Assembly (NCBI GenBank): GCA_002433895.1 | Contig: DJJA01000003.1 | Span: 376,881 to 440,880, forward strand | Direction of reading: 5' to 3' | DNA from: Candidatus Gottesmanbacteria bacterium UBA6580 | GTDB taxonomy: Bacteria; Patescibacteriota; Microgenomatia; UBA10105; UBA927 | Length of the DNA: 64,000 nucleotides | Shown: positions 1 to 48,344 of the stretch, one piece after another | How positions within the stretch are numbered: position 1 is the first letter of the stretch | Layout of the letters: each line of letters begins with the position of its first letter | Translations under genes and position numbers: made by a program | The notes under the pieces: model-generated | Told to the model about the DNA's origin: nothing | The model's input: only the letters and a program-made list of their open reading frames with translations | Databases searched by the model: none

Positions 1-2417
1 CAAAAAGCCCAGACTTTACCGCCCCTCTTAACGTAACTCTTGAGATGGAAACGGGTACGGGTAAGACTTACGTTTACCTCCGCTCCATTTTAGAGCTATA
101 TCAAAAATATGGACTATCTAAGTTTATTATCGTCGTCCCTACGGTAGCCATTAAAGAGGGCGTTATGAAGTCCCTAGCTATCACTAAAGACCATTTTAAG
201 GGTCTGTATAACAACTTGTCCTATGAGTACTACGAGTATGTATCTACTAAGCTAATGACCGTCCGAATGTTTGCGCAGTCCTCTCACCTGCAAATTATGG
301 TCATTACAAAAGACGCTTTTAATAAAGATAAAAATATCATCCATAACAACCATGACCGCATGGGAGATAAACCAATTTCTCTTATCCAAAAGACTAACCC
401 TATCGTTATCTTAGACGAACCACAGAAGATGGGTGGAGAGGCTACCCAATGGGGCATAAAAGAGCTTAACCCCCTCATAGTACTTAGATACTCTGCTACG
501 CATAGAGATATTGAAAATCTGGTTTACAAGCTTACCCCTTTTGACGCCTATGCCAAAGGTCTAGTTAAAAAAATAGAACTAGCGACCGTTGTAGAGGAAA
601 GCGACCCAAATACCAAAAAGATTATTCTGGAGAATATCTACTCCTCTGGAAGTAGCCTAAAAGCCAAAATAAAGGTGTTCATAAAGCAAGCAACATCCGT
701 GCAACTCAAAACTATTACTGTTGGCTCTGGTGATAACTTAGCTACTAAATCAAAAAATCCATATTACGACGGCTTTACCGTCTCCGAGATTAACTTAGGT
801 AATAACTACATTCTTTTTTCTAATGGTCTAAAGGTGTATGTGGGTCAATCCTCTGTAAATGAGGATGAAATAGTACGCATGATGGTACGTGAGATAGTTT
901 TAGAACACTTGGAAAAAAAGCGAAAGTTTAACCCACTTGGGATTAAGACCCTCTCTCTTTTCTTCATCCACCGTGTAGACGACTACCTACCAGTAGACGG
1001 GTGGCTCCGCAAAATGTTTGAGGAAGAGTACCAGAAAGCTACCAATGCCGACTACCAAGAGTTTAAGACCGCAAGAGTTGACAAGGTACACTCTGGGTAC
1101 TTCTCAGAGATGAAAAAAACCTCCTCAATAGAAAATGACGAGAAAGCCTACGAGCTGATTATGAAAGATAAGGAAAAATTGCTCTCCTTAGATAATCCCG
1201 TGGAGTTTATCTTTTCCCATTCTGCCCTACGTGAGGGATGGGACAACCCCAATATCTTTAATATCTGTACCTTAGCTTACTCAACCTCTGATATTAAAAA
1301 AAGACAGGAAATCGGACGAGGCTTGCGTCTAGTGGTAAACCAGCAAGGAGACCGCATATACGACCGAGATATAAACGTACTTACCGTAGTTACCAACGAA
1401 AGCTACCAAAATTATGTATCTGAATTGCAGACCGAGTTTAGAGATGAGGCAGGAGAAAGCGCCCCACCTGTAGAGCATAAGAAAAAACGAGTTAGCCTAA
1501 CCCTAAAAGATGACGCATTAGCTAACAAGAGCTTCCAGAGCCTTTGGAAGTTACTAGCAAAGCGGGCTAAGTTTGTTGTCTCTATGCAAGAAGAGGAAAT
1601 AATAAGTAAGTGTGTAGATGAAATTAACAAAATTGACGAAAGTAATATCCGAGAAATTCGGGTACGCATTACTAAAACAGGAATAGACACACTTCTACTT
1701 GATGATATTAGAGGCAACATCGTAAGCGACCGAAGCTACGAAATCGGAGCCTCTAAACAGCTACCTAACATTATTGCCCTCCTCCAAGCCGATACTAAGC
1801 TCACCAAGAAAACCCTATTAGCCATACTCCAAAGGGTAAATAATTTTGACCTGTTTTTCAAAAACTCCTACCAGTATGCAAGCCTCGTTTCCTACGCCAT
1901 TAAAACCGTCATATCAGACCTAGCCTCTAAAGGTATTAGCTATGTAGAGATTAGCGACAATTACGGATTATCGCTTTTTAATAAAGAAGTCCAGACTTAC
2001 GAAAAGTATTTAGTAAAGCTAGAGAGCGCCAAGACCCTCTATAAAACAGCAAATAACGGACAAGTGGACGCAGTCATTATTGACCCCAGCCCGTCCGTAG
2101 AGGGTGTATCACAGCCAGAGAAAAGGTTTGCCGAGAACGCAGACCGCAACGATACGGTTAAGTTTTTCTTTAAGCTCCCAGACACCTACTCTATCGCAAC
2201 TCCCGCAGGGCAATATACACCAGACTGGGCGGTAGTAGTTGAAAATGGCGACCATAACCAAGTCTATTTTGTAGCAGAAACTAAGGATACTAATATCATT
2301 AGTAGTCTCCGCCAAGAGGAGCAGATAAAAATACTCTCTGCACGAGCTATGTTTAAGGAAGTCATGCCAGAGGTCATTTTCAAAGCTCCCGTAAGCGAGT
2401 TTAGCGACCTTGCATGA
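1..2417 (+). CDS. res: Type III restriction endonuclease Res subunit (helicase plus C-terminal PD-ExK nuclease); 5'-truncated at window edge, frame open to nt 3
   Basis: Walker A TGTGKT, DEPQ box, helicase motif QEIGRGLRL, C-terminal PDWAVVVE...VYFVAETKD nuclease motif; no stop upstream of first Met. Confidence 0.75.
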   Translation, partial: KSPDFTAPLNVTLEMETGTGKTYVYLRSILELYQKYGLSKFIIVVPTVAIKEGVMKSLAITKDHFKGLYNNLSYEYYEYVSTKLMTVRMFAQSSHLQIMVITKDAFNKDKNIIHNNHDRMGDKPISLIQKTNPIVILDEPQKMGGEATQWGIKELNPLIVLRYSATHRDIENLVYKLTPFDAYAKGLVKKIELATVVEESDPNTKKIILENIYSSGSSLKAKIKVFIKQATSVQLKTITVGSGDNLATKSKNPYYDGFTVSEINLGNNYILFSNGLKVYVGQSSVNEDEIVRMMVREIVLEHLEKKRKFNPLGIKTLSLFFIHRVDDYLPVDGWLRKMFEEEYQKATNADYQEFKTARVDKVHSGYFSEMKKTSSIENDEKAYELIMKDKEKLLSLDNPVEFIFSHSALREGWDNPNIFNICTLAYSTSDIKKRQEIGRGLRLVVNQQGDRIYDRDINVLTVVTNESYQNYVSELQTEFRDEAGESAPPVEHKKKRVSLTLKDDALANKSFQSLWKLLAKRAKFVVSMQEEEIISKCVDEINKIDESNIREIRVRITKTGIDTLLLDDIRGNIVSDRSYEIGASKQLPNIIALLQADTKLTKKTLLAILQRVNNFDLFFKNSYQYASLVSYAIKTVISDLASKGISYVEISDNYGLSLFNKEVQTYEKYLVKLESAKTLYKTANNGQVDAVIIDPSPSVEGVSQPEKRFAENADRNDTVKFFFKLPDTYSIATPAGQYTPDWAVVVENGDHNQVYFVAETKDTNIISSLRQEEQIKILSARAMFKEVMPEVIFKAPVSEFSDLA

Positions 2418-2584
2418 TAAGCCAAAAAAGTACTGATAATCTGAAAAAGATATTTAAGGAGGAGTACAAAGCCGACTTAACAGACGAAGAGGCAAAGGAA
2501 GCAGGTCAAAAGTTGGTGGACTACTTTAGCCTTTTAATAGAGATTGATAAAAAGGCAAAAATTGTTAGGAAAAATGAAATATAA
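2414..2584 (+). CDS. Small hypothetical protein (56 aa), translationally coupled to res via ATGA overlap
   Basis: ATG overlaps the res TGA stop; continuous 56-codon frame ending 3 nt before the recombinase ATG; no homology recognised. Confidence 0.3.
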   Translation: MISQKSTDNLKKIFKEEYKADLTDEEAKEAGQKLVDYFSLLIEIDKKAKIVRKNEI

Positions 2585-2586
2585 AT

Positions 2587-4203
<1,617 letters not shown>

Positions 4204-19317: not shown

Positions 19318-19800
19318 ATGGTGTTCAGTAGCACATTACTTATTACCGGAATAGCCATAGGTTTTTTGTTGTGGCTCAGTATCATTTCCGCTTTGCTTAT
19401 TCGGATGATTTCCCATTATAATAGGTTAAGCAAAGGTGTCACGAAGCAGAGTCTTTTGGATGTGCTCGAATCTATACTCAGTTCTCTCCAGGATATAAAA
19501 GTCAGGAGTGTAGCACTTGAAAAAGTGACACGGGAACTGCAGGTAGACGGCGCATTACACGTGCAGCGAATTGGTATTGTCCGGTTTAATCCGTTTGCCG
19601 ATACCGGGGGAGCGCAGAGTTTTTCAATTGCGCTGCTTGATGGAAAAAATTCCGGTATTGTGATGACATCGCTGTATGCCAGGGCAGGGAACAGGTGGTA
19701 TATAAAAGAAATAGTATCGGGTAAAGGTAAGGATCTCGCGTTGTCAAAGGAAGAAGAGGCTGCTATAGACAACGCAAAGCATATAGGAGGAATATCATGA
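19318..19800 (+). CDS. DUF4446 family membrane protein
   Basis: N-terminal TM helix; RIGIVRFNPF...GGAQSFSIALLD segment typical of DUF4446. Confidence 0.6.
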   Translation: MVFSSTLLITGIAIGFLLWLSIISALLIRMISHYNRLSKGVTKQSLLDVLESILSSLQDIKVRSVALEKVTRELQVDGALHVQRIGIVRFNPFADTGGAQSFSIALLDGKNSGIVMTSLYARAGNRWYIKEIVSGKGKDLALSKEEEAAIDNAKHIGGIS

Positions 19801-20969
19801 ACAAGCAAAAATTTATCTCGACAATTATCGTCGGATTAGTACTTTACCTCATATCGACCGGTTTGTCGTTCGCAGCGTTTTCTTATTTGGGAAAGTCATC
19901 ACCCGGCACCAAAGCGCCTAATACACAAAATGGATCGCAGGAGCATTTTGCGATAGATCCTTCATTACCACGTACAGAAGCGTGTCCGATAAACGGTCAA
20001 TTGTATACCAAACAGGAAAAAGATATTTGGTCAGCACGTCGGCCGCTTGCCGTCATGATAGAAAATCACGAAGAATCACGGCCACAATCTGGATTATCCA
20101 AAGCAGATGTGGTGTATGAAGCGGTTGCCGAAGGTGGTATTACCCGGTTTATGGGTATTTATTACTGCGGAGCTGCGGCGGAATCGGTGAATTTGGCACC
20201 GGTTCGGAGCGCTCGGGAATACTATTTGCCTTGGGTCCTTGAGTACGACGCGCTGTATAACCATGTTGGAGGAGCCGGGCTTTGTAACGATAACACAGTC
20301 GATGAACGCGCTAAGGCGCTATGCCATATCCAGACATACAAGGTGAAAGATATGGATCAGTTTGGCATTTCATTCCCCACATGTTTTAGGAATTACGACC
20401 GGTTGGATCATCCGGTGGCAACCGAGCATACGATGGTGTGTGTTACCGATAAACTTATCGCGCTGGCTAAGCAGCGCGGATGGACGAACGTGGATGCGTC
20501 AGGTGTTCCTTGGGATAAGGGATTCCAATCATGGAAATTTAAAGATGACGCAAAAGAGAGTGAACGGGGAACAAATACGTCTATCAGCTTTTCTGCCTGG
20601 AAAGGTTACGAGAAGCAATATGGCGTACGGTGGGATTACGATAAAATAGCCAACGTTTATAAGCGTTACAACGGTGGTATCGCGCATACCGATTTAGAAA
20701 CCAAAGAGCAGCTTTCTGCAAAAGTGGTCGCAATACTGTTTGCGAAAGAGATCGGACCAGTCGACAGCCATGCCCACCTTCTGTATGAAAATATTGGGAG
20801 CGGGGAAGCAATTGTGTTCCAGGATGGTAAAGCGACAAAGGGGGTATGGAAGAAGGCGACAAGGAACGCGCGGACAATATTTTATGACTCAGCAAACAAA
20901 GAGATTACATTAACCCGCGGGCAAATATGGATAGAAATGCTGCCCACCGGAACAACAGTAACATACTAA
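19797..20969 (+). CDS. DUF3048 domain protein (YerB-like, secreted/lipoprotein)
   Basis: Signal/TM at N-terminus; RPLAVMIENHEESRPQSGL...YEAVAEGGITRFMGIYY DUF3048 N-domain signature. Confidence 0.65.
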   Translation: MNKQKFISTIIVGLVLYLISTGLSFAAFSYLGKSSPGTKAPNTQNGSQEHFAIDPSLPRTEACPINGQLYTKQEKDIWSARRPLAVMIENHEESRPQSGLSKADVVYEAVAEGGITRFMGIYYCGAAAESVNLAPVRSAREYYLPWVLEYDALYNHVGGAGLCNDNTVDERAKALCHIQTYKVKDMDQFGISFPTCFRNYDRLDHPVATEHTMVCVTDKLIALAKQRGWTNVDASGVPWDKGFQSWKFKDDAKESERGTNTSISFSAWKGYEKQYGVRWDYDKIANVYKRYNGGIAHTDLETKEQLSAKVVAILFAKEIGPVDSHAHLLYENIGSGEAIVFQDGKATKGVWKKATRNARTIFYDSANKEITLTRGQIWIEMLPTGTTVTY

Positions 20970-43548: not shown

Positions 43549-44085
43549 ATGAAATATGTAGCACTCCTCCGTGGTATAAATGTCGGCGGCAATACATTGA
43601 TTAAGATGGCAGACCTCAAGGCGGCGGTTAAAAAAGCAGGATTTACCAACGTTATGACGTATATCGCCAGCGGCAATTTGCTCTTTGAAACGAAAGAAAC
43701 GGGTGCTGCGGCTATAGAAAAAACACTTGAGCAGGTGATACACCAAACATTCCATTTACCCGTGCGGGTAGTGGTTCTTAACGACAAACAATACAAGAAG
43801 GTGCTGGATGATGTACCGGAAAGTTGGAAAACTCGTGGTGATATCCGCTGCTACATAGCATTTCTCAAGCGACCGACTACAGCGGCGCAAGTCATGAAAG
43901 AAGTTCAACCCAAAGAAGGTATTGATGTGATCACCCCGGGTACGGGTGCCGTGTATATGGCGACTTTGCTTTCCGGGTTAACCAAAAGCGGAATAAATAA
44001 AATTATTGGGAAGAAAATTTATCAGGATATGACAATGCGGAACTACAACACGTCAAAAAAGTTGTTGGAGCTTCTGGAGAAATAA
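43549..44085 (+). CDS. DUF1697 domain protein
   Basis: MKYVALLRGINVGGNTLIKMADLK signature N-terminus. Confidence 0.7.
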   Translation: MKYVALLRGINVGGNTLIKMADLKAAVKKAGFTNVMTYIASGNLLFETKETGAAAIEKTLEQVIHQTFHLPVRVVVLNDKQYKKVLDDVPESWKTRGDIRCYIAFLKRPTTAAQVMKEVQPKEGIDVITPGTGAVYMATLLSGLTKSGINKIIGKKIYQDMTMRNYNTSKKLLELLEK

Positions 44086-44091
44086 GCAGGG

Positions 44092-44580
44092 TTACGATAT
44101 TTCTATAATGGTGAACGTTTTGGTGCCCGATGGTGCCTGAAATTCCACCACATCATTCATCCGTTTTCCTAAAATCGCGTGGCCAAGCGGGGAAATATGT
44201 GAAATAGATTTTTGGCCGGGATTGGATTCATAGCCGCCAACGATGGTGTACTCATATTCACGGGCTGCATCTTTGAGCTTTACCGTGCTACCTATTTGTA
44301 CCGTGCCGTCATTTACGGAGGAAACAATTTTGGCAAGCTTTATAAGCCGGGTGACACGGCGCAGTCTGCCGTCGATAAAATTCAGTTGCTGCCGCGAGGC
44401 TTTATAGTACCCGTTTTCAGAAAGATCACCCATCTCACGCGCCTTTTTGAGGTGGTCAACTGCCTCGGGCCGCTTAGCTTCTAATTCCGCTTTTTCGGCG
44501 ACAATCTTGTCATAACCCACCTGCGTAAAAGGGATACGTGGCTCTTTGCGGTTGAGGAGAAATTTTGCGATCTTTACCAT
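44092..44580 (-). CDS. greA: Transcription elongation factor GreA
   Basis: N-terminal coiled coil with GDLSENGYYKA, C-terminal FKBP-like domain. Confidence 0.9.
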   Translation of the reverse strand: MVKIAKFLLNRKEPRIPFTQVGYDKIVAEKAELEAKRPEAVDHLKKAREMGDLSENGYYKASRQQLNFIDGRLRRVTRLIKLAKIVSSVNDGTVQIGSTVKLKDAAREYEYTIVGGYESNPGQKSISHISPLGHAILGKRMNDVVEFQAPSGTKTFTIIEIS

Positions 44581-44581
44581 G

Positions 44582-44652
44582 CTGCGGGACTAGGATTCGA
44601 ACCTAGATAAGCAGATTCAGAGTCTGCTGTACTACCATTATACGATCCCGCA
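44582..44652 (-). tRNA. tRNA-Gln (anticodon CTG), no encoded CCA
   Basis: Cloverleaf: U1-A72 acceptor UGCGGGA/UCCCGCA, discriminator G, anticodon loop CUCUGAA, T arm CUAGGUUCGAAUCCUAG. Confidence 0.8.
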
Positions 44653-44744
44653 TGTAGGGGTATTATACCTCAATTTAGCCTTATGGTGGTACTCACGGTG
44701 ATTGCGCTATAAATACACGATTATTGCGTTAGATGGGGCTACGT

Positions 44745-45035
44745 ATGGTAGAGAAAAACAAACGACAACGAAGATTTAGTGATGCAGTGAGGCTACAAAA
44801 AGCAGGAATTACTGTAAGTACCCGAGATTTAGCCCAGGCAACAGGCAGTGACGAGCGTGACCTCGAAGGGATACTTGTGGCGCAGGATTCACCTGCTTTA
44901 CGGGCGGTTACCGAGGGGAGAGAGCGACGTCTCGTCCGTATGTCCGGAATGGGTGATAATGACGGCGGCACTATTGGATTTGCCTTATTGGTAGAAGATA
45001 TAAAGAAACTATTCGCTAAGTTTAGAAAGAAATAA
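44745..45035 (+). CDS. Hypothetical small basic protein (possible HTH)
   Basis: ORF with weak RBS; ITVSTRDLAQATGSDERDLEGIL helix-turn-helix-like segment; no family recognised. Confidence 0.35.
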   Translation: MVEKNKRQRRFSDAVRLQKAGITVSTRDLAQATGSDERDLEGILVAQDSPALRAVTEGRERRLVRMSGMGDNDGGTIGFALLVEDIKKLFAKFRKK

Positions 45036-45055
45036 TACGTTATACTGAGTAGAGT

Positions 45056-45313
45056 ATGTTAGTTGCTCACGTTGTTATTTCCTTTACGAGTTTAGTTATC
45101 GCATCACTCACTGCCCTTACTCCAACAAAACAAAAACTTTTTATTACCTATATCACTACCGTGGGGACACTGGTGAGTGGCGTATTGTTGATGGTTTTTG
45201 AAACAGTTCCGGTATCGCGGGTTTGTATAAGCGGCGGGGCTTTTCTCGCATCGGTTATAGCTTTGACTGTTATCGCTAAATGGAGACTTACTTCGAAAGC
45301 CAAGCTTTACTAA
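45056..45313 (+). CDS. Small membrane protein (3 TM)
   Basis: 85-aa hydrophobic ORF between the small basic ORF and the helicase. Confidence 0.4.
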   Translation: MLVAHVVISFTSLVIASLTALTPTKQKLFITYITTVGTLVSGVLLMVFETVPVSRVCISGGAFLASVIALTVIAKWRLTSKAKLY

Positions 45314-45332
45314 CGTTTTTCCCTCCACTATA

Positions 45333-46517
45333 GTGAGGTTCCGTATGCCACAACTATCTCGTGACCAAAAAACCGCGTTAGAACATGTATTGGAGTGGTA
45401 CCGCAAAGACAGGCAAGCGATGCAGTATGTGACACTAGGGGGTTACGCGGGGACGGGTAAGACCACGCTCATCGGCGTCATCCGGCGTGAACTTCACAAG
45501 ATTGATCCGGGGCTAAAGGTAGGGTTTGTAAGCTTTACCGGCAAAGCCGCACGGGTACTGCAGAGTAAGATAAAAGAAGCTGATGTCATGTATAAGCAGG
45601 ACAGTGTGGGTACTATTCACTCGCTTATCTACACCCCGGTGCTTAACGATAGGGAAGAAATCATCGGGTGGAAAACGAAAGATACCATTGACCGCAACCT
45701 CATCATTATCGATGAGGGCTCGATGGTAGATAGAACGATATGGGAGCATCTCGTGTCATACCGGGTGCCGATGATTGTGGTGGGAGATCACGGGCAGTTG
45801 CCGCCGATAAGCGGAAACTTTACCCTCATGCAGACACCACAATTGCGGTTAGAAGAAATTCACCGGCAGGCGCGGCAAAATCCCATTATTGCACTTTCTA
45901 TCGAGGCGCGGGAAAAGGGGATGATTACCGCGGGCCGTTACTCGAGCCATGTGATTAAGTACGATCGCGACGATCCCGAAACGGGCGAAGTGATGAGCGA
46001 AATGCTGACTAACTACAACGCCAAAACGCTCATCCTGTGCGGGTACAATAAGACGAGAAAGCGGCTCAACGCGTTTATCCGTAATGCTTTGGGATTTGAA
46101 AGTCCCGCGCCCGTGGCCGGTGACCGGGTTATTTGTCTCCGGAACAATCACAAAGCAAAAATCTACAATGGTATGTTGGGAACAATTCTTGAAATTGCGC
46201 CAAAAAATCATCAGGCGTATGAAGTAGAGATCGAAATAGACGGGGAGCGCGATACGTACAAAGGGCTTATCGCTATCGATCAGTTTGACGCCGATACGGC
46301 ACTTAATTTCACCGAAAATAGACGATTATTTAACGGCATTGACTTATTTGACTTCGGCTACTCGCTTACCGTGCACAAAGCACAGGGATCACAAGCCAAG
46401 CGCGTGATACTTTTTGAAGAACGGTTTTCCAAAATGACAGATGACCAGTGGAAGCGCTGGCTCTATACCGCAGTGACCAGAGCGGAAGAGGAGCTCTATA
46501 TCTTTCCATCTCCATAA
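45333..46517 (+). CDS. Dda/RecD-like SF1B DNA helicase (short form)
   Basis: Walker A GYAGTGKTT, Walker B LIIIDEGSM, motif III VVGDHGQLPPI, motif VI-like VHKAQGSQ...AVTRAEEEL. Confidence 0.8.
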   Translation: MRFRMPQLSRDQKTALEHVLEWYRKDRQAMQYVTLGGYAGTGKTTLIGVIRRELHKIDPGLKVGFVSFTGKAARVLQSKIKEADVMYKQDSVGTIHSLIYTPVLNDREEIIGWKTKDTIDRNLIIIDEGSMVDRTIWEHLVSYRVPMIVVGDHGQLPPISGNFTLMQTPQLRLEEIHRQARQNPIIALSIEAREKGMITAGRYSSHVIKYDRDDPETGEVMSEMLTNYNAKTLILCGYNKTRKRLNAFIRNALGFESPAPVAGDRVICLRNNHKAKIYNGMLGTILEIAPKNHQAYEVEIEIDGERDTYKGLIAIDQFDADTALNFTENRRLFNGIDLFDFGYSLTVHKAQGSQAKRVILFEERFSKMTDDQWKRWLYTAVTRAEEELYIFPSP

Positions 46518-46533
46518 CGTATACTTTGGGGGT

Positions 46534-47109
46534 ATGCCACAACCACAACTCGAAGCTAAATATGTCAAAAGTATCAATGGTACCGATGACATCATCAAAG
46601 ATAACCGGCTCAAGGTGACCTTTTTGGGTCGCTCCAATGTGGGCAAATCCAGCCTGATCAATTCACTGGTGGGGAAGCCGCTCGCCCGCTCCAGTAGTAG
46701 GCCGGGCAAAACAGTGAAGCTCGATTTTTTCCTCGTGGAACAGCGGCTCTTTTTTGTCGATTTGCCCGGTTACGGTTTTGCCAAACGGAGTAAAGAAGCC
46801 CTTGAGCATTACCGCAAACTTATCGCCTGGTATTTGTTCCGGTCAGAGGTAAATCATAAAATCGCGGTGCTTATTATTGACGCGAAAATAGGGCTGACCG
46901 ATTACGACCGGGAGTCGATCAACTTACTTACCGATCATCGGATACCGTTTATCGTGGTCGCCAACAAAGTAGATAAGCTCAAGATGGGTGAGCGCCACAA
47001 ACAGCTTGAATTTATCCGTGAAGAAATGGGTGGGTTACCCCTCGTTGTGTACTCATCGCACACGCTGGAAGGTAGGGGAGAGCTACTCAATATCATTATG
47101 GGAAAATGA
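46534..47109 (+). CDS. engB: Ribosome biogenesis GTP-binding protein YihA/EngB
   Basis: G1 GRSNVGKSSLIN, G3 DLPGYG, G4 NKVD. Confidence 0.9.
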   Translation: MPQPQLEAKYVKSINGTDDIIKDNRLKVTFLGRSNVGKSSLINSLVGKPLARSSSRPGKTVKLDFFLVEQRLFFVDLPGYGFAKRSKEALEHYRKLIAWYLFRSEVNHKIAVLIIDAKIGLTDYDRESINLLTDHRIPFIVVANKVDKLKMGERHKQLEFIREEMGGLPLVVYSSHTLEGRGELLNIIMGK

Positions 47110-47633
47110 GCGCCATGACTTCAGGTGATATAAAAATCATAAACGATATGTCTGCTTCGCTCCTCGTTATGCGCGAAGCGGGTAAATGGCTCAAAGATAG
47201 CGGAAAAAATCCAAATAAATGGTGGCAGTTACAGAACCTTACGCCGGAGTTTTTGCTTCAATTTGTTACGGCGGAAGAATTTTATGTAGTGACGATAAAC
47301 GGCGCTCCGGCAGCTTCCGCGGTATTACAAATTACCGATAGTAATCAGTGGGAATTTATTGATGGCAATACGCCGCTCAAGGCGCTGTATATCCACTGGG
47401 TATGCGTATCCCGGCAGTTTGCCGGCAGAGGTTTGCCAACACTACTTATAAAACACGCAGAGAAGCTAGCGCAGGCAGCTCATGTGGCGTTCATGCGGGT
47501 AGACACCAACGCGGATGAGCCAAAGTTACGGCGTATATATGAATCGAACGGGTTTACGTTGGTAAAAGTATTAAATGAAGGATACCGTAACACTGCGTAT
47601 TTTCAAAAAACGCTGGCAAAACAAGAGAAGTAG
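47106..47633 (+). CDS. GNAT family N-acetyltransferase
   Basis: Acetyl-CoA binding motif RQFAGRGLPTLL; GNAT fold length. Confidence 0.7.
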   Translation: MSAMTSGDIKIINDMSASLLVMREAGKWLKDSGKNPNKWWQLQNLTPEFLLQFVTAEEFYVVTINGAPAASAVLQITDSNQWEFIDGNTPLKALYIHWVCVSRQFAGRGLPTLLIKHAEKLAQAAHVAFMRVDTNADEPKLRRIYESNGFTLVKVLNEGYRNTAYFQKTLAKQEK

Positions 47634-47651
47634 TGATACGTATGTAAATAT

Positions 47652-48344
47652 ATGACTGTTAAGTTATTGTCATGGAATATTTGGGGAGGAAAGTTTTTAC
47701 CTGGAGTTGCCGACTTTCTTACCGCATCGAACGCAGACATTATCGCGCTGCAGGAGGTGGAGGAGCAGGATGACGGCAACAATACGGCGCAGTATATAGC
47801 CGGTAAACTCGGATACACGCACGCGTACGCGCGCTCAATGCGGTACAACAATAAGGGCAAAGATGTGTACCGCGGTAACGCGGTGCTGAGTAAATATCCG
47901 ATCATTGATCACACAATCCATGTGTTATCCCGGGATCAGTCGCGCACCGCGGTACAGGCGGACATTGATGTTGGGGGGAGCGTGCTTCATGTGTTTTCGG
48001 TGCACATTATCCATTCGCATCAACAGCCATCGCCCATACAGGTTGAGCAGGTCACCAGCTTAATACACGCAGCACCCAAACAGCGAACGGTTATTATGGG
48101 TGATTTTAACGCGGTCCCGGAAAGTGAGGCGATCAGGATTATGCGCAAGTCTTTTACCGATCCTGATACATCTGATACACCGTCGTGGTGTCTGTATCCT
48201 GATGGGTGTAGCGTGTGTAAACCAGAACGCGTGGAGTGGAAGCTTGATTATGTTTTCACTACCGATGATATTGCCGCCAAAGATTTCAGGGCAGAAACGT
48301 CCGAAGCTTCCGACCATCTGCCCATAAGTGTTGTAGTTGGATAA
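47652..48344 (+). CDS. Endonuclease/exonuclease/phosphatase (EEP) family protein
   Basis: WNIWGG..., IIALQEV, GDFN, SDHLP motifs. Confidence 0.8.
   Translation: MTVKLLSWNIWGGKFLPGVADFLTASNADIIALQEVEEQDDGNNTAQYIAGKLGYTHAYARSMRYNNKGKDVYRGNAVLSKYPIIDHTIHVLSRDQSRTAVQADIDVGGSVLHVFSVHIIHSHQQPSPIQVEQVTSLIHAAPKQRTVIMGDFNAVPESEAIRIMRKSFTDPDTSDTPSWCLYPDGCSVCKPERVEWKLDYVFTTDDIAAKDFRAETSEASDHLPISVVVG

What the first reader, a model, noticed from the sequence alone, without database searches (positions are those of the whole stretch)
44582..46517. tRNA-Gln-adjacent module: small basic HTH-like ORF + 3-TM peptide + Dda-like helicase
Immediately beyond the tRNA-Gln gene sit three co-directional ORFs with short gaps (20 nt, 19 nt). 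A stand-alone 394-aa Dda/RecD-like SF1B helicase is typical of phage or defence contexts rather than core repair. It is paired with a tiny membrane protein and a putative DNA-binding protein, and sits next to a tRNA (frequent integration site). Together these suggest a horizontally acquired remnant or a small defence or abortive-infection-like system.
Basis: inference. Interest (0 to 1): 0.5.

Follow-up and report, generated by a model that had tools for sequence, protein, structure and literature searches.

The report
Core helicase beside a swappable gene slot
The three genes next to tRNA-Gln are real but are not a defence module: the helicase is a strongly conserved, vertically inherited housekeeping-type gene of this Patescibacteria (Gottesmanbacteria) lineage, and only the two tiny genes upstream sit in a strain-variable slot, where a near-identical sister strain carries an abortive-infection gene.

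Summary
Observation confirmed, with small corrections. tRNA-Gln(ctg) lies at 44581-44652 (-). It is followed by ORF1 (probably 44745-45035, 96 aa, pI 10.2), ORF2 (45056-45313, 85 aa, three hydrophobic spans) and an SF1B Dda-like helicase (probably 45345-46517, 390 aa).

The window is a Ca. Gottesmanbacteria genome.
- **Helicase:** every SF1 motif is intact and dN/dS is 0.02, the lowest locally. It diverges about as RecA does (66% vs 72% to one distant relative). It is followed by engB in 11 of the 16 relative loci examined. Its 120 best homologues are at least 65% identical and about 390 aa, in varied housekeeping contexts. Phage homologues reach only 42%.
- **No island signs:** composition is normal for the region as a whole, there is no integrase and no tRNA-derived repeat, and gaps of about 20 nt are the genome's norm.
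- **Variable slot:** a strain about 98% identical shows sharp breakpoints at the GreA start (~44566) and mid-ORF2 (~45222). Between them it has tRNA-Gln inverted and an AIPR/AbiU-like gene instead of ORF1. Other relatives carry GIY-YIG, PIN or other cargo there.
- **Small ORFs:** ORF1 belongs to a tiny Patescibacteria-only family and its HTH status is unproven. ORF2 is a lineage-specific membrane peptide.

Overall this is ordinary, with a modestly interesting hot spot.

The parts
44092..44580 (-). greA (transcription elongation factor). It is the left anchor of the variable slot. The strain-level breakpoint falls in its first ~5 codons, at about 44566-44572.
   Evidence: Pfam GreA_GreB and GreA_GreB_N. 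Identity to L019 is at least 95% up to 44559 and then breaks.
44581..44652 (-). tRNA-Gln (anticodon CTG). The sequence is identical in sister strain L019 but in the opposite orientation.
   Evidence: ARAGORN. Rfam RF00005 at 64.9 bits. Inverted match to L019 2957-3046.
44566..45222 (.). Strain-variable, recombining segment. It holds the GreA 5' tip, tRNA-Gln, ORF1 and the 5' two-thirds of ORF2. In L019 it is replaced by tRNA-Gln(+) plus a 577-aa AIPR/AbiU-like gene plus a divergent ORF2 5' part.
   Evidence: blastn and MAFFT against L019 give flanks at 98.1% and 97.3% identity, 63-80% within 45056-45235, and at least 98% from 45236. AIPR is supported by Pfam at 3e-37 and PADLOC AbiU at 7e-34.
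44745..45035 (+). ORF1: a 96-aa (100 aa from ATG 44733) basic, all-alpha protein of a very small Patescibacteria-only family. Function unknown; an HTH is not demonstrated.
   Evidence: There are 5 close clusters and 14 representatives among 1.84 billion proteins. No Pfam, NCBIfam, PHROG, PADLOC or PDB hit. dN/dS is 0.17. The AF2 model has pLDDT 65 and Foldseek gives E of 1.1 or more.
45056..45313 (+). ORF2: an 85-aa small membrane protein with three hydrophobic spans. It is lineage-specific. Wherever its context could be read it lies directly upstream of the helicase. Its 3' third belongs to the conserved backbone.
   Evidence: Hydropathy. Orthologues in L001 (62%), L019 (78%) and L002/L003 (38%), with H5, P23, K27-L28, C57, G60 and the terminal LY invariant. 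dN/dS is 0.32.
45345..46517 (+). SF1B Dda-like DNA helicase, 390 aa (the ORF opens at GTG 45333). It is a conserved backbone gene.
   Evidence: Pfam AAA_30, AAA_19, UvrD_C_2 and a weak SH3_13. PHROG 325 at 9e-91. PDB relatives are LfDda 9kwf at 1e-21, RecD2 3e1s and T4 Dda 3upu. All SF1 motifs are invariant in 22 homologues. dN/dS is 0.021.
46534..47109 (+). engB/ysxC-type ribosome-biogenesis GTPase. It is the conserved downstream neighbour of the helicase in this clade, 16 nt after the helicase stop.
   Evidence: Pfam MMR_HSR1. Helicase-EngB adjacency is seen in L001-L005, L019, L100-L102 and L103.

Best explanation
The interval is the junction of two different things, not one module.

**(1) Conserved backbone.** It runs from mid-ORF2 through the helicase, engB, a GNAT, an EEP nuclease/phosphatase and DUF2079. 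The 390-aa protein is a cellular member of the Dda-like branch of SF1B helicases. By homology it is an ATP-driven 5'-to-3' single-stranded-DNA translocase and helicase. In these reduced Patescibacteria genomes it most likely acts as a housekeeping accessory motor, helping replication forks and recombination intermediates past obstacles. That is the role played elsewhere by Dda, RecD2 and Pif1. It is vertically inherited and under very strong purifying selection.

**(2) Variable slot.** It lies upstream, between greA/tRNA-Gln and mid-ORF2, is rearrangement-prone and differs between strains. Its content appears to be exchanged by homologous recombination anchored in greA and ORF2. In this genome it holds ORF1, a small basic helical protein of unknown function. 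In a sister strain about 98% identical it holds an AbiU/AIPR abortive-infection gene with tRNA-Gln flipped. In other relatives it holds GIY-YIG, PIN or other cargo.

**Shown:** gene reality, family assignment, conservation, synteny, breakpoints, and the absence of island hallmarks around the helicase.

**Inferred:** the helicase's polarity and cellular role, the exchange mechanism, and any function for ORF1 or ORF2.
For: **Organism**
- The window is Ca. Gottesmanbacteria / Patescibacteria (record titles).

**Helicase family**
- Pfam and PHROG hits.
- The closest solved relative is LfDda, a cellular Dda-like helicase shown biochemically to unwind 5'-3' (PMC12724130).
- Walker A, DE, GDHGQLPP, HRQ, TVHKAQGS and YTAxTRA are invariant across 22 homologues of 65-81% identity.

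**Core-like behaviour**
- 7901 of the 8000 scored candidates pass E<=1e-10. The best 120 are at least 65% identical, and most are 386-393 aa with a few shorter or longer.
- dN/dS is 0.021, against EngB 0.031 and GreA 0.083.
- In every relative the helicase is at least as conserved as its housekeeping neighbours.
- Between the window and L008, RecA is 72% identical and the helicase 66%.
- Distant homologues sit in unrelated cellular contexts: near recA/recX, cell-envelope genes, RNase HII.

**Not phage-derived recently**
- The best phage and viral-contig homologues are full length but at most 40-42% identical.
- No viral contig holds a close relative.

**No island hallmarks**
- GC is 0.467-0.474 and the tetranucleotide distance is at the 76th percentile.
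- There is no tRNA-derived repeat.
- There is no recombinase among the ORFs of 41.8-51 kb.

**Variable slot**
- The L019 comparison.
- The slot contents in L001-L005 and L100-L102.
- ORF1 homologues occur elsewhere without the helicase: Obg-GreA-ORF1-like in L016, and GIY-YIG-ORF1-like-unidentified ORF in L017/L018.
Against: - The cellular role of the helicase is inferred only from family membership. No experiment or conserved functional partner pins it down.
- Its best profile match is a phage family (PHROG 325), so an ancient phage origin cannot be excluded.
- Taxonomic breadth across Patescibacteria was not measured genome by genome. The homologue list carries few names.
- ORF2 lies immediately upstream of the helicase in every genome where it was found with readable context (5-6 loci, ORF2 identity down to 38%). 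That could mean a real functional link in this subclade.
- ORF1 lies directly upstream of the helicase in at least three or four lineages (window, L001/L103, L101, and probably the P0004/P0015 contig), so some linkage exists.
- dS values are saturated (1.4-4), so the dN/dS figures are only rough.
Confidence: 0.75

Rival explanations
1. The three genes form a small defence or abortive-infection-like system: a DNA-binding sensor, a membrane effector and a helicase.
For: - The helicase core matches PADLOC candidate-system models: PDC-M16A at 7e-44, type IV RecD and PDC-S68.
- The sister strain carries an AbiU/AIPR gene in the ORF1 position, so the slot can host defence genes.
- ORF1 and ORF2 have atypical GC3 of 0.38.
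- A small membrane protein next to an ATPase is a common Abi layout (general knowledge).
Against: - The PADLOC matches cover only the generic helicase core of much longer proteins (691-1273 aa).
- ORF1 and ORF2 hit nothing in PADLOC.
- The genes do not co-vary. The helicase occurs without ORF1 or ORF2 in L004, L005, L006-L008, L010, L012, L100 and L102. ORF1 occurs without ORF2 in L101. ORF2 occurs without ORF1 in L002, L003 and L019. ORF1-like genes occur away from the helicase in L016-L018.
- The helicase shows RecA-like conservation and dN/dS of 0.02, which is unlike typically patchy defence genes.
Confidence: 0.04
2. The helicase, with or without the small ORFs, is a remnant of a prophage or integrative element that entered at tRNA-Gln.
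For: - PHROG 325 'Dda-like helicase' at 9e-91.
- Thousands of phage homologues of the same length.
- Adjacency to a tRNA.
Against: - There is no integrase and no att-like repeat of the tRNA.
- The genes lie on the 5' side of the tRNA in this genome.
- Composition is normal.
- Phage homologues are at most 42% identical, against at least 65% among hundreds of Patescibacteria proteins.
- Helicase-engB synteny is conserved across species-level to family-level relatives, whether or not tRNA-Gln is adjacent.
- An ancient domestication before the radiation of this clade remains possible, but it is compatible with the main explanation.
Confidence: 0.05
3. ORF2 and the helicase form a functional pair in this Gottesmanbacteria subclade. 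For example, a membrane-tethering partner might localise the helicase at the envelope, as in DNA uptake or processing. ORF1 is unrelated cargo.
For: - ORF2 lies directly upstream of the helicase (19-31 nt) in every genome where it was found with readable context: the window, L001/L103, L019, L002 and L003. ORF2 identity there falls to 38%, with conserved residues retained.
- The strain-level breakpoint lies inside ORF2, leaving its 3' third with the backbone.
Against: - ORF2 is absent upstream of the equally conserved helicase in L004, L005, L100, L101 and L102, and in all more distant homologues.
- Adjacency within one clade can be simple inherited synteny.
- ORF2 evolves fast, with dN/dS of 0.32.
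- There is no family hit.
Confidence: 0.1

Closest known systems
Phage T4 Dda and Dda-like SF1B helicases (PHROG 325). The closest solved cellular relative is LfDda from Leptospirillum (PDB 9kwf).
   Same: - Similar size (390 aa, against 439 for Dda and 434 for LfDda) and a single-polypeptide SF1B core.
- All helicase motifs are present.
- The profile match is full length: PHROG 325 at 9e-91, with phage homologues covering 98% of the protein.
- LfDda matches at E 1e-21.
- Expected mechanism: a 5'-3' ssDNA translocase and helicase (PMC12724130).
   Different: - Identity to any phage copy is only 30-42%.
- The gene is encoded in a cellular backbone, followed by engB, and conserved at RecA-like levels across Patescibacteria MAGs.
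- The pin (1B) and SH3/tower (2B) elements were not verified structurally. SH3_13 scores only 28 bits, below the cut-off of 41.
RecD2 (TIGR01448; D. radiodurans RecD2 3e1s, B. subtilis RecD2/YrrC)
   Same: - A stand-alone RecD-like SF1B helicase in a genome region without recB or recC.
- It shares the helicase core and the SH3-like insertion.
- The proposed housekeeping role at forks and in recombination is borrowed from RecD2.
   Different: - It lacks the roughly 330-residue N-terminal region of RecD2. The match begins at profile position 332 of 713.
- It scores 127 bits against the curated cut-off of 500, so it is not a RecD2 equivalog.
Replacement-type flexible genomic islets at conserved anchors or tRNA genes, such as defence hot spots where different cargo occupies the same slot in sister strains
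   Same: - Sharp identity breakpoints in the flanking conserved genes (greA and ORF2).
- Alternative cargo in strains about 98% identical: ORF1 in one and AbiU/AIPR in the other.
- Further cargo (GIY-YIG, PIN, XRE-HTH and others) in relatives, with a tRNA gene at the border.
   Different: - The slot is tiny (0.65 kb here, 2.3 kb in L019).
- There is no integrase or att repeat.
- The tRNA gene itself changes orientation.
- Only one of the observed cargoes is a recognised defence gene.
Helix-turn-helix DNA-binding proteins (TetR or MarR N-terminal type), considered for ORF1
   Same: - A small, basic, all-helical protein.
- A conserved 'LAxATG' segment between two predicted helices.
- The top, non-significant Foldseek hits are HTH regulators.
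   Different: - No sequence-profile hit to any HTH family.
- Foldseek gives E of 1.1 or more and TM of 0.28 or less, on a model with pLDDT 65 and pTM 0.31.
- The would-be recognition helix is acidic (DERDLEG).

Membership tests
SF1B Dda-like helicases | Complete set of SF1 helicase motifs (I/Walker A, II/DE, III, IV, V, VI) | tested here: met
   The motifs are GxAGTGKTT (32-41), DE (123-124), GDHGQLPP (147-154), HRQ (173-175), TVHKAQGS (342-349) and YTAxTRA (374-380). All are invariant in 22 homologues. Pfam AAA_30, AAA_19 and UvrD_C_2 are above their cut-offs.
SF1B Dda-like helicases | Full-length similarity to Dda-like family profiles or members | tested here: met
   PHROG 325 at 9e-91 over residues 7-391. 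Phage and viral-contig homologues cover about 98% of the protein at 30-42% identity. PDB matches are LfDda at 1e-21 and T4 Dda at 8e-7.
SF1B Dda-like helicases | Accessory 1B pin and 2B SH3/tower domains | tested here: inconclusive
   Pfam SH3_13 matches at residues 262-295 with 28.3 bits, below the cut-off of 41. No structure model of the helicase was made.
SF1B Dda-like helicases | 5'-to-3' ATP-dependent DNA unwinding | not testable with these tools
   Inferred from relatives: LfDda (PMC12724130), and T4 Dda and RecD2 (literature knowledge).
RecD2 (TIGR01448 equivalog) | Score above the curated cut-off, and presence of the N-terminal extension | tested here: not met
   127.2 bits against a cut-off of 500. 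The match covers profile positions 332-686 of 713 only, and the protein is 390 aa.
RecD of RecBCD (TIGR01447) | Equivalog score, and association with recB/recC | tested here: not met
   87.9 bits against a cut-off of 310. No recB or recC lies next to it in the window or in any related locus. The rest of the genome was not examined.
Known or candidate anti-phage defence systems (PADLOC-DB 2.0) | All component genes of a system present together | tested here: not met
   Only the helicase core matches (PDC-M16A, type IV RecD, PDC-S68, GajB), and these are partial alignments to longer proteins. ORF1 and ORF2 have no hits. PADLOC or DefenseFinder system-level rules were not run.
tRNA-integrated genomic island or prophage remnant | Integrase or recombinase gene at the tRNA border | tested here: not met
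   There is no recombinase domain among the ORFs of 41.8-51 kb. By contrast, a serine recombinase does abut tRNA-Pro at 2587-4149.
tRNA-integrated genomic island or prophage remnant | Direct repeat of the tRNA end (att) at the far border | tested here: not met
   No shared k-mer of 10 nt or more between the tRNA and 44653-48000 on either strand. Only chance-level 9-mers were found.
tRNA-integrated genomic island or prophage remnant | Compositional anomaly | tested here: not met
   The whole region has GC of about 0.47, like the genome, and sits at the 76th tetranucleotide percentile. Helicase GC3 is 0.57, like its neighbours. Only ORF1 and ORF2 have lower GC3, at 0.38.
tRNA-integrated genomic island or prophage remnant | Variable presence among close relatives | tested here: inconclusive
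   Met for the ORF1 / ORF2-5' slot, where L019 carries AbiU/AIPR instead and other cargo occurs in L002-L005 and L100-L102. Not met for the helicase, which is present in all of them.
HTH DNA-binding proteins (for ORF1) | Significant sequence or structure match to an HTH domain | tested here: inconclusive
   No Pfam, NCBIfam or PDB profile hit. The AF2 model has pLDDT 65 and pTM 0.31. The best Foldseek hits are TetR/MarR HTH regions, but at E of 1.1 or more.

The most novel reading that the evidence does not exclude
The greA/tRNA-Gln-to-helicase slot is a miniature defence or accessory hot spot in Gottesmanbacteria. On this reading, ORF1 (perhaps together with the fast-evolving membrane peptide ORF2) is an uncharacterised small accessory function that is allelic to AbiU/AIPR, for example a new minimal abortive-infection or anti-phage regulator unique to Patescibacteria.

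Separately, the neighbouring helicase would be a Patescibacteria-wide, anciently domesticated phage-type Dda helicase. It would serve as the main accessory replication and recombination motor of these reduced genomes.
Probability: 0.12. Interest if true: 0.5.

Novelty: new member of a known kind. Interest (0 to 1): 0.25.

Why it matters
As framed, as a defence module, it does not hold up, and showing that saves follow-up effort. Two modest points remain.

1. A phage-type (Dda-like) minimal SF1B helicase is conserved at RecA-like levels across many Patescibacteria. I found no discussion of it in the searchable literature. It may be a key DNA-maintenance motor in these ultra-reduced genomes.
2. 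The short greA/tRNA-Gln slot shows strain-level cassette replacement, including an AbiU gene and a flipped tRNA, in an uncultivated lineage. This gives a concrete example of how accessory and defence genes turn over in CPR bacteria without integrases.

Tried and rejected
- **Domain searches for ORF1 and ORF2.** Pfam, NCBIfam, PHROG and PADLOC gave nothing, apart from a sub-threshold TM7S3_TM198 hit for ORF2.
- **PDB sequence searches for ORF1.** Neither the single sequence nor the 16-sequence profile gave anything meaningful; the best E was 0.3.
- **Per-member Pfam scan of the ORF1 family.** Only scattered hits with E above 0.01.
- **AF2 models of ORF1.** With 5 sequences the pLDDT was 48, which is unusable. 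With 16 sequences it was 65. The Foldseek PDB search then gave no hit below E=1.
- **att-site search around 46520.** None was found.
- **Rfam scan of the window.** Only the two tRNAs.
- **Promoter and terminator scans.** Fewer sites than in shuffled sequence, so uninformative.
- **Viral-contig scans.** The single-protein scan found no relative. The alignment scan found only relatives of at most 42% identity.
- **Metagenome-contig scan with the ORF1 family.** The narrow one only re-found the L001 lineage plus one fragment.
- **Cluster-member look-up for taxonomy.** Almost no names were returned.
- **Literature searches.** Searches on Patescibacteria/CPR with RecD or Dda found nothing relevant.
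- **Short gaps as evidence of a module.** Rejected, because they are the genome-wide norm.
- **A second helicase at 19797-20969.** This ORF is also 390 aa, but it is DUF3048.
Full report
**1. What is there**

The window is a compact genome, about 94% coding with a median co-directional gap of 19.5 nt. It belongs to Ca. Gottesmanbacteria (Patescibacteria/CPR). The closest public genomes carry that name, and one locus is about 98% identical at the nucleotide level.

At the finding's coordinates the layout is as follows.
- greA lies at 44092-44580 on the - strand.
- tRNA-Gln(CTG) lies at 44581-44652 on the - strand.
- ORF1 runs 44733-45035, but homologues indicate that ATG 44745 is the start, giving 96 aa.
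- ORF2 runs 45056-45313 and encodes 85 aa.
- A helicase ORF runs 45333-46517. A GAGG box and the 389-390 aa length of homologues indicate that ATG 45345 is the start, giving 390 aa.
- engB follows only 16 nt later (46534-47109). After it come a GNAT, an EEP-family enzyme, DUF2079, a glycosyltransferase and a LAB_N protein, all co-directional.

The quoted gaps of 20 and 19 nt are correct, but they are typical of the genome and do not delimit a three-gene unit.

**2. The helicase**
- **Family.** It has Pfam AAA_30, AAA_19 and UvrD_C_2 and a sub-threshold RecD-type SH3 domain. It gives a very strong full-length match to PHROG 325 'Dda-like helicase' at 9e-91.
- **Curated RecD models.** It fails the NCBIfam models for RecD2 (127 bits against 500, core only) and RecD (88 against 310).
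- **Solved relatives.** By sequence these are LfDda of Leptospirillum (9kwf, 1e-21), D. radiodurans RecD2 and T4 Dda. LfDda is a cellular Dda-like enzyme shown to unwind 5'-3' (PMC12724130).
- **Motifs.** All SF1 motifs are intact and invariant among 22 homologues.

**3. Is the helicase foreign?** Every test says no.
- **Composition.** GC is flat at 0.467-0.474. The region's tetranucleotide distance is at the 76th percentile of equal-sized windows. Helicase GC3 (0.57) equals that of engB and dNK.
- **Selection.** Against the orthologous locus L001, the helicase has the lowest dN/dS of seven local genes: 0.021, against engB 0.031 and greA 0.083. dS is saturated, so the values are rough.
- **Relative conservation.** In every related locus it is as conserved as, or more conserved than, its housekeeping neighbours. 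In L002, for example, the helicase is 77% identical, engB 72%, greA 58% and EEP 50%. Between the window and a distant relative (L008), RecA is 72% identical and the helicase 66%.
- **Breadth.** The protein database returned 7901 proteins passing E<=1e-10 among the 8000 candidates scored. The 120 best are at least 65% identical, and most are 386-393 aa with a few shorter or longer. Those that carry names are almost all Patescibacteria.
- **Contexts of distant homologues.** They sit near recA/recX, among glycosyltransferases, or near RNase HII, without ORF1, ORF2 or engB.
- **Phage relatives.** Phage and viral-contig relatives are full length but only 30-42% identical. No close relative lies on a viral contig.
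- **Island hallmarks.** There is no integrase nearby. No repeat of the tRNA of 10 nt or more exists anywhere between 44653 and 48000. In this genome the genes lie on the 5' side of the tRNA, not the 3' side used by most tRNA-targeting elements.
- **PADLOC.** The HMMs match only the generic helicase core of much larger proteins and give nothing for the two small ORFs.

**4. The small ORFs**

Both are genuine genes.
- **ORF1.**
  - It has orthologues of 54-99% identity and purifying selection, with dN/dS of 0.17.
  - An exhaustive profile search of 1.84 billion representatives found only 14 family members, all about 94-128 aa apart from one longer call.
  - It has no detectable domain.
  - It is basic, with pI 10.2, and predicted to be all-helical.
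  - The model is weak: pLDDT 65 and pTM 0.31. Structural matches to TetR/MarR HTH regions are not significant, with E of 1.1 or more.
  - The candidate recognition helix is acidic. 'HTH-like' therefore stays an untested guess.
- **ORF2.**
  - It has three hydrophobic spans.
  - Its orthologues go down to 38% identity and keep a handful of invariant residues.
  - Its dN/dS is 0.32.
  - It has no family assignment.

**5. The three genes are not a unit**

| Locus | Helicase identity | Genes upstream of the helicase |
|---|---|---|
| Window and L001/L103 | 92% (L001/L103) | greA(-), tRNA-Gln(-), ORF1, ORF2 |
| L019 | 99.5% | greA(-), tRNA-Gln(+), AIPR/AbiU-like, ORF2 |
| L002/L003 | 77% | tRNA-Gln(+), DUF1295, DUF2177, DUF2178, XRE-HTH, RibD_C, ORF2 |
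| L004 | 78% | greA(-), tRNA-Gln(-), GIY-YIG(-) |
| L100 | 80% | tRNA-Gln(-), greA(+) |
| L101 | 80-81% | ORF1-like only |
| L102 | 81% | an unrelated 98-aa gene |
| L005 | 77% | AhpC, PIN_12, a 91-aa gene |

All of these loci keep helicase-engB. ORF1-family genes also occur away from any helicase. In L016 the order is Obg-GreA-ORF1-like. In L017/L018 it is GIY-YIG, then ORF1-like, then an unidentified ORF.

**6. The variable slot**

The comparison with L019 is the most informative result.
- The flanks are 98.1% identical on the left, through greA, and 97.3% on the right.
- Identity collapses at about 44566, in the first codons of greA.
- It recovers abruptly at about 45222-45236, inside ORF2. 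Identity is 63-80% over 45056-45235 and at least 98% afterwards.
- Between these points the window has tRNA-Gln(-) and ORF1.
- L019 has the identical tRNA in the opposite orientation, followed by a 577-aa AIPR protein. That protein matches Pfam AIPR at 3e-37 and PADLOC AbiU at 7e-34.

This is the signature of allelic replacement by homologous recombination anchored in conserved flanks. The slot is a small flexible locus whose cargo includes, in one strain, a bona fide abortive-infection gene. The lower GC3 of ORF1 and ORF2 (0.38) fits accessory status.

**7. How it most likely works**

The helicase is inferred to be a 5'-3' ssDNA motor. It would support replication-fork progression and recombination in a genome with a minimal repair repertoire, by analogy with Dda, RecD2 and Pif1. 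Its RecA-like conservation argues for an important housekeeping role, but no partner or experiment defines that role.

The helicase-engB adjacency is most simply inherited synteny.

ORF1 is probably a small nucleic-acid-binding or protein-binding accessory factor, and ORF2 a small membrane protein. I cannot assign a function to either. The constant position of ORF2 immediately upstream of the helicase in five or six loci leaves room for a subclade-specific functional link (about 0.1).

**8. Verdict**

The interpretation as a horizontally acquired or defence module is not supported for the helicase, and only partly supported for the upstream slot. Novelty is a new member of a known kind (a cellular Dda-like SF1B helicase) plus two lineage-specific ORFans in a small flexible locus. 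Interest is low to moderate (0.25).

Noticed in passing
window 1-4203: This is the window's real compositional outlier, with GC of 0.40-0.42 against about 0.47 and the highest tetranucleotide distance. It carries a type III restriction Res/DEAD helicase with an RE_endonuc domain (45-2417, cut by the window start). It also carries a 520-aa large serine recombinase (2587-4149) whose 3' end overlaps tRNA-Pro(GGG) at 4130-4203 (- strand), just before recA. This looks like a classical tRNA-adjacent integrated element.
   Followed up: partly
L019 2957-5000 (Logan SRR7663064_68), corresponding to window 44566-45222: A sister strain about 98% identical has tRNA-Gln in the opposite orientation, with an identical tRNA sequence, and an AIPR/AbiU-like gene in place of ORF1. 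How the tRNA gene came to be flipped between such close strains is unexplained. No flanking inverted repeats were looked for beyond the alignment.
   Followed up: partly
L004 401-718 (-); L102 2324-2581 (+); L017 116-373 (+): Small stand-alone GIY-YIG genes of 85-105 aa recur at different positions around this locus in relatives. One lies between tRNA-Gln and the helicase, one just after engB, and one just before an ORF1-like gene. This suggests a mobile, homing-type GIY-YIG element active in this lineage.
   Followed up: no
L008 5728-5778: A 17-residue stretch 88% identical to the helicase C-terminus (residues 377-393) lies about 560 nt downstream of the intact helicase gene in a distant relative. 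It may be a vestige of a duplication or rearrangement, or it may be chance.
   Followed up: no
L001 4215-4756 and L103 2305-2810 (orthologue of window 43549-44085): The DUF1697 gene, intact in the window (178 aa), matches in two pieces in the UBA5942-type relative: residues 1-48 and 52-169, as two ORFs. This suggests a frameshift, a pseudogene or an assembly error there.
   Followed up: no
L002, L004, L006 record titles; P0104: Several contigs fully syntenic with this Gottesmanbacteria locus are labelled 'uncultured Gammaproteobacteria bacterium' in their public records. One helicase homologue is labelled 'Weeksellaceae bacterium'. These are probably mislabelled or mis-binned MAG contigs.
   Followed up: no
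L016 876-1623: In one relative an ORF1-family gene follows greA co-directionally with an 8-nt gap, in the order Obg-GreA-ORF1-like. In the window, greA and ORF1 are also neighbours but divergent, with the tRNA between them. A functional tie between ORF1 and GreA or transcription is conceivable but untested.
   Followed up: partly
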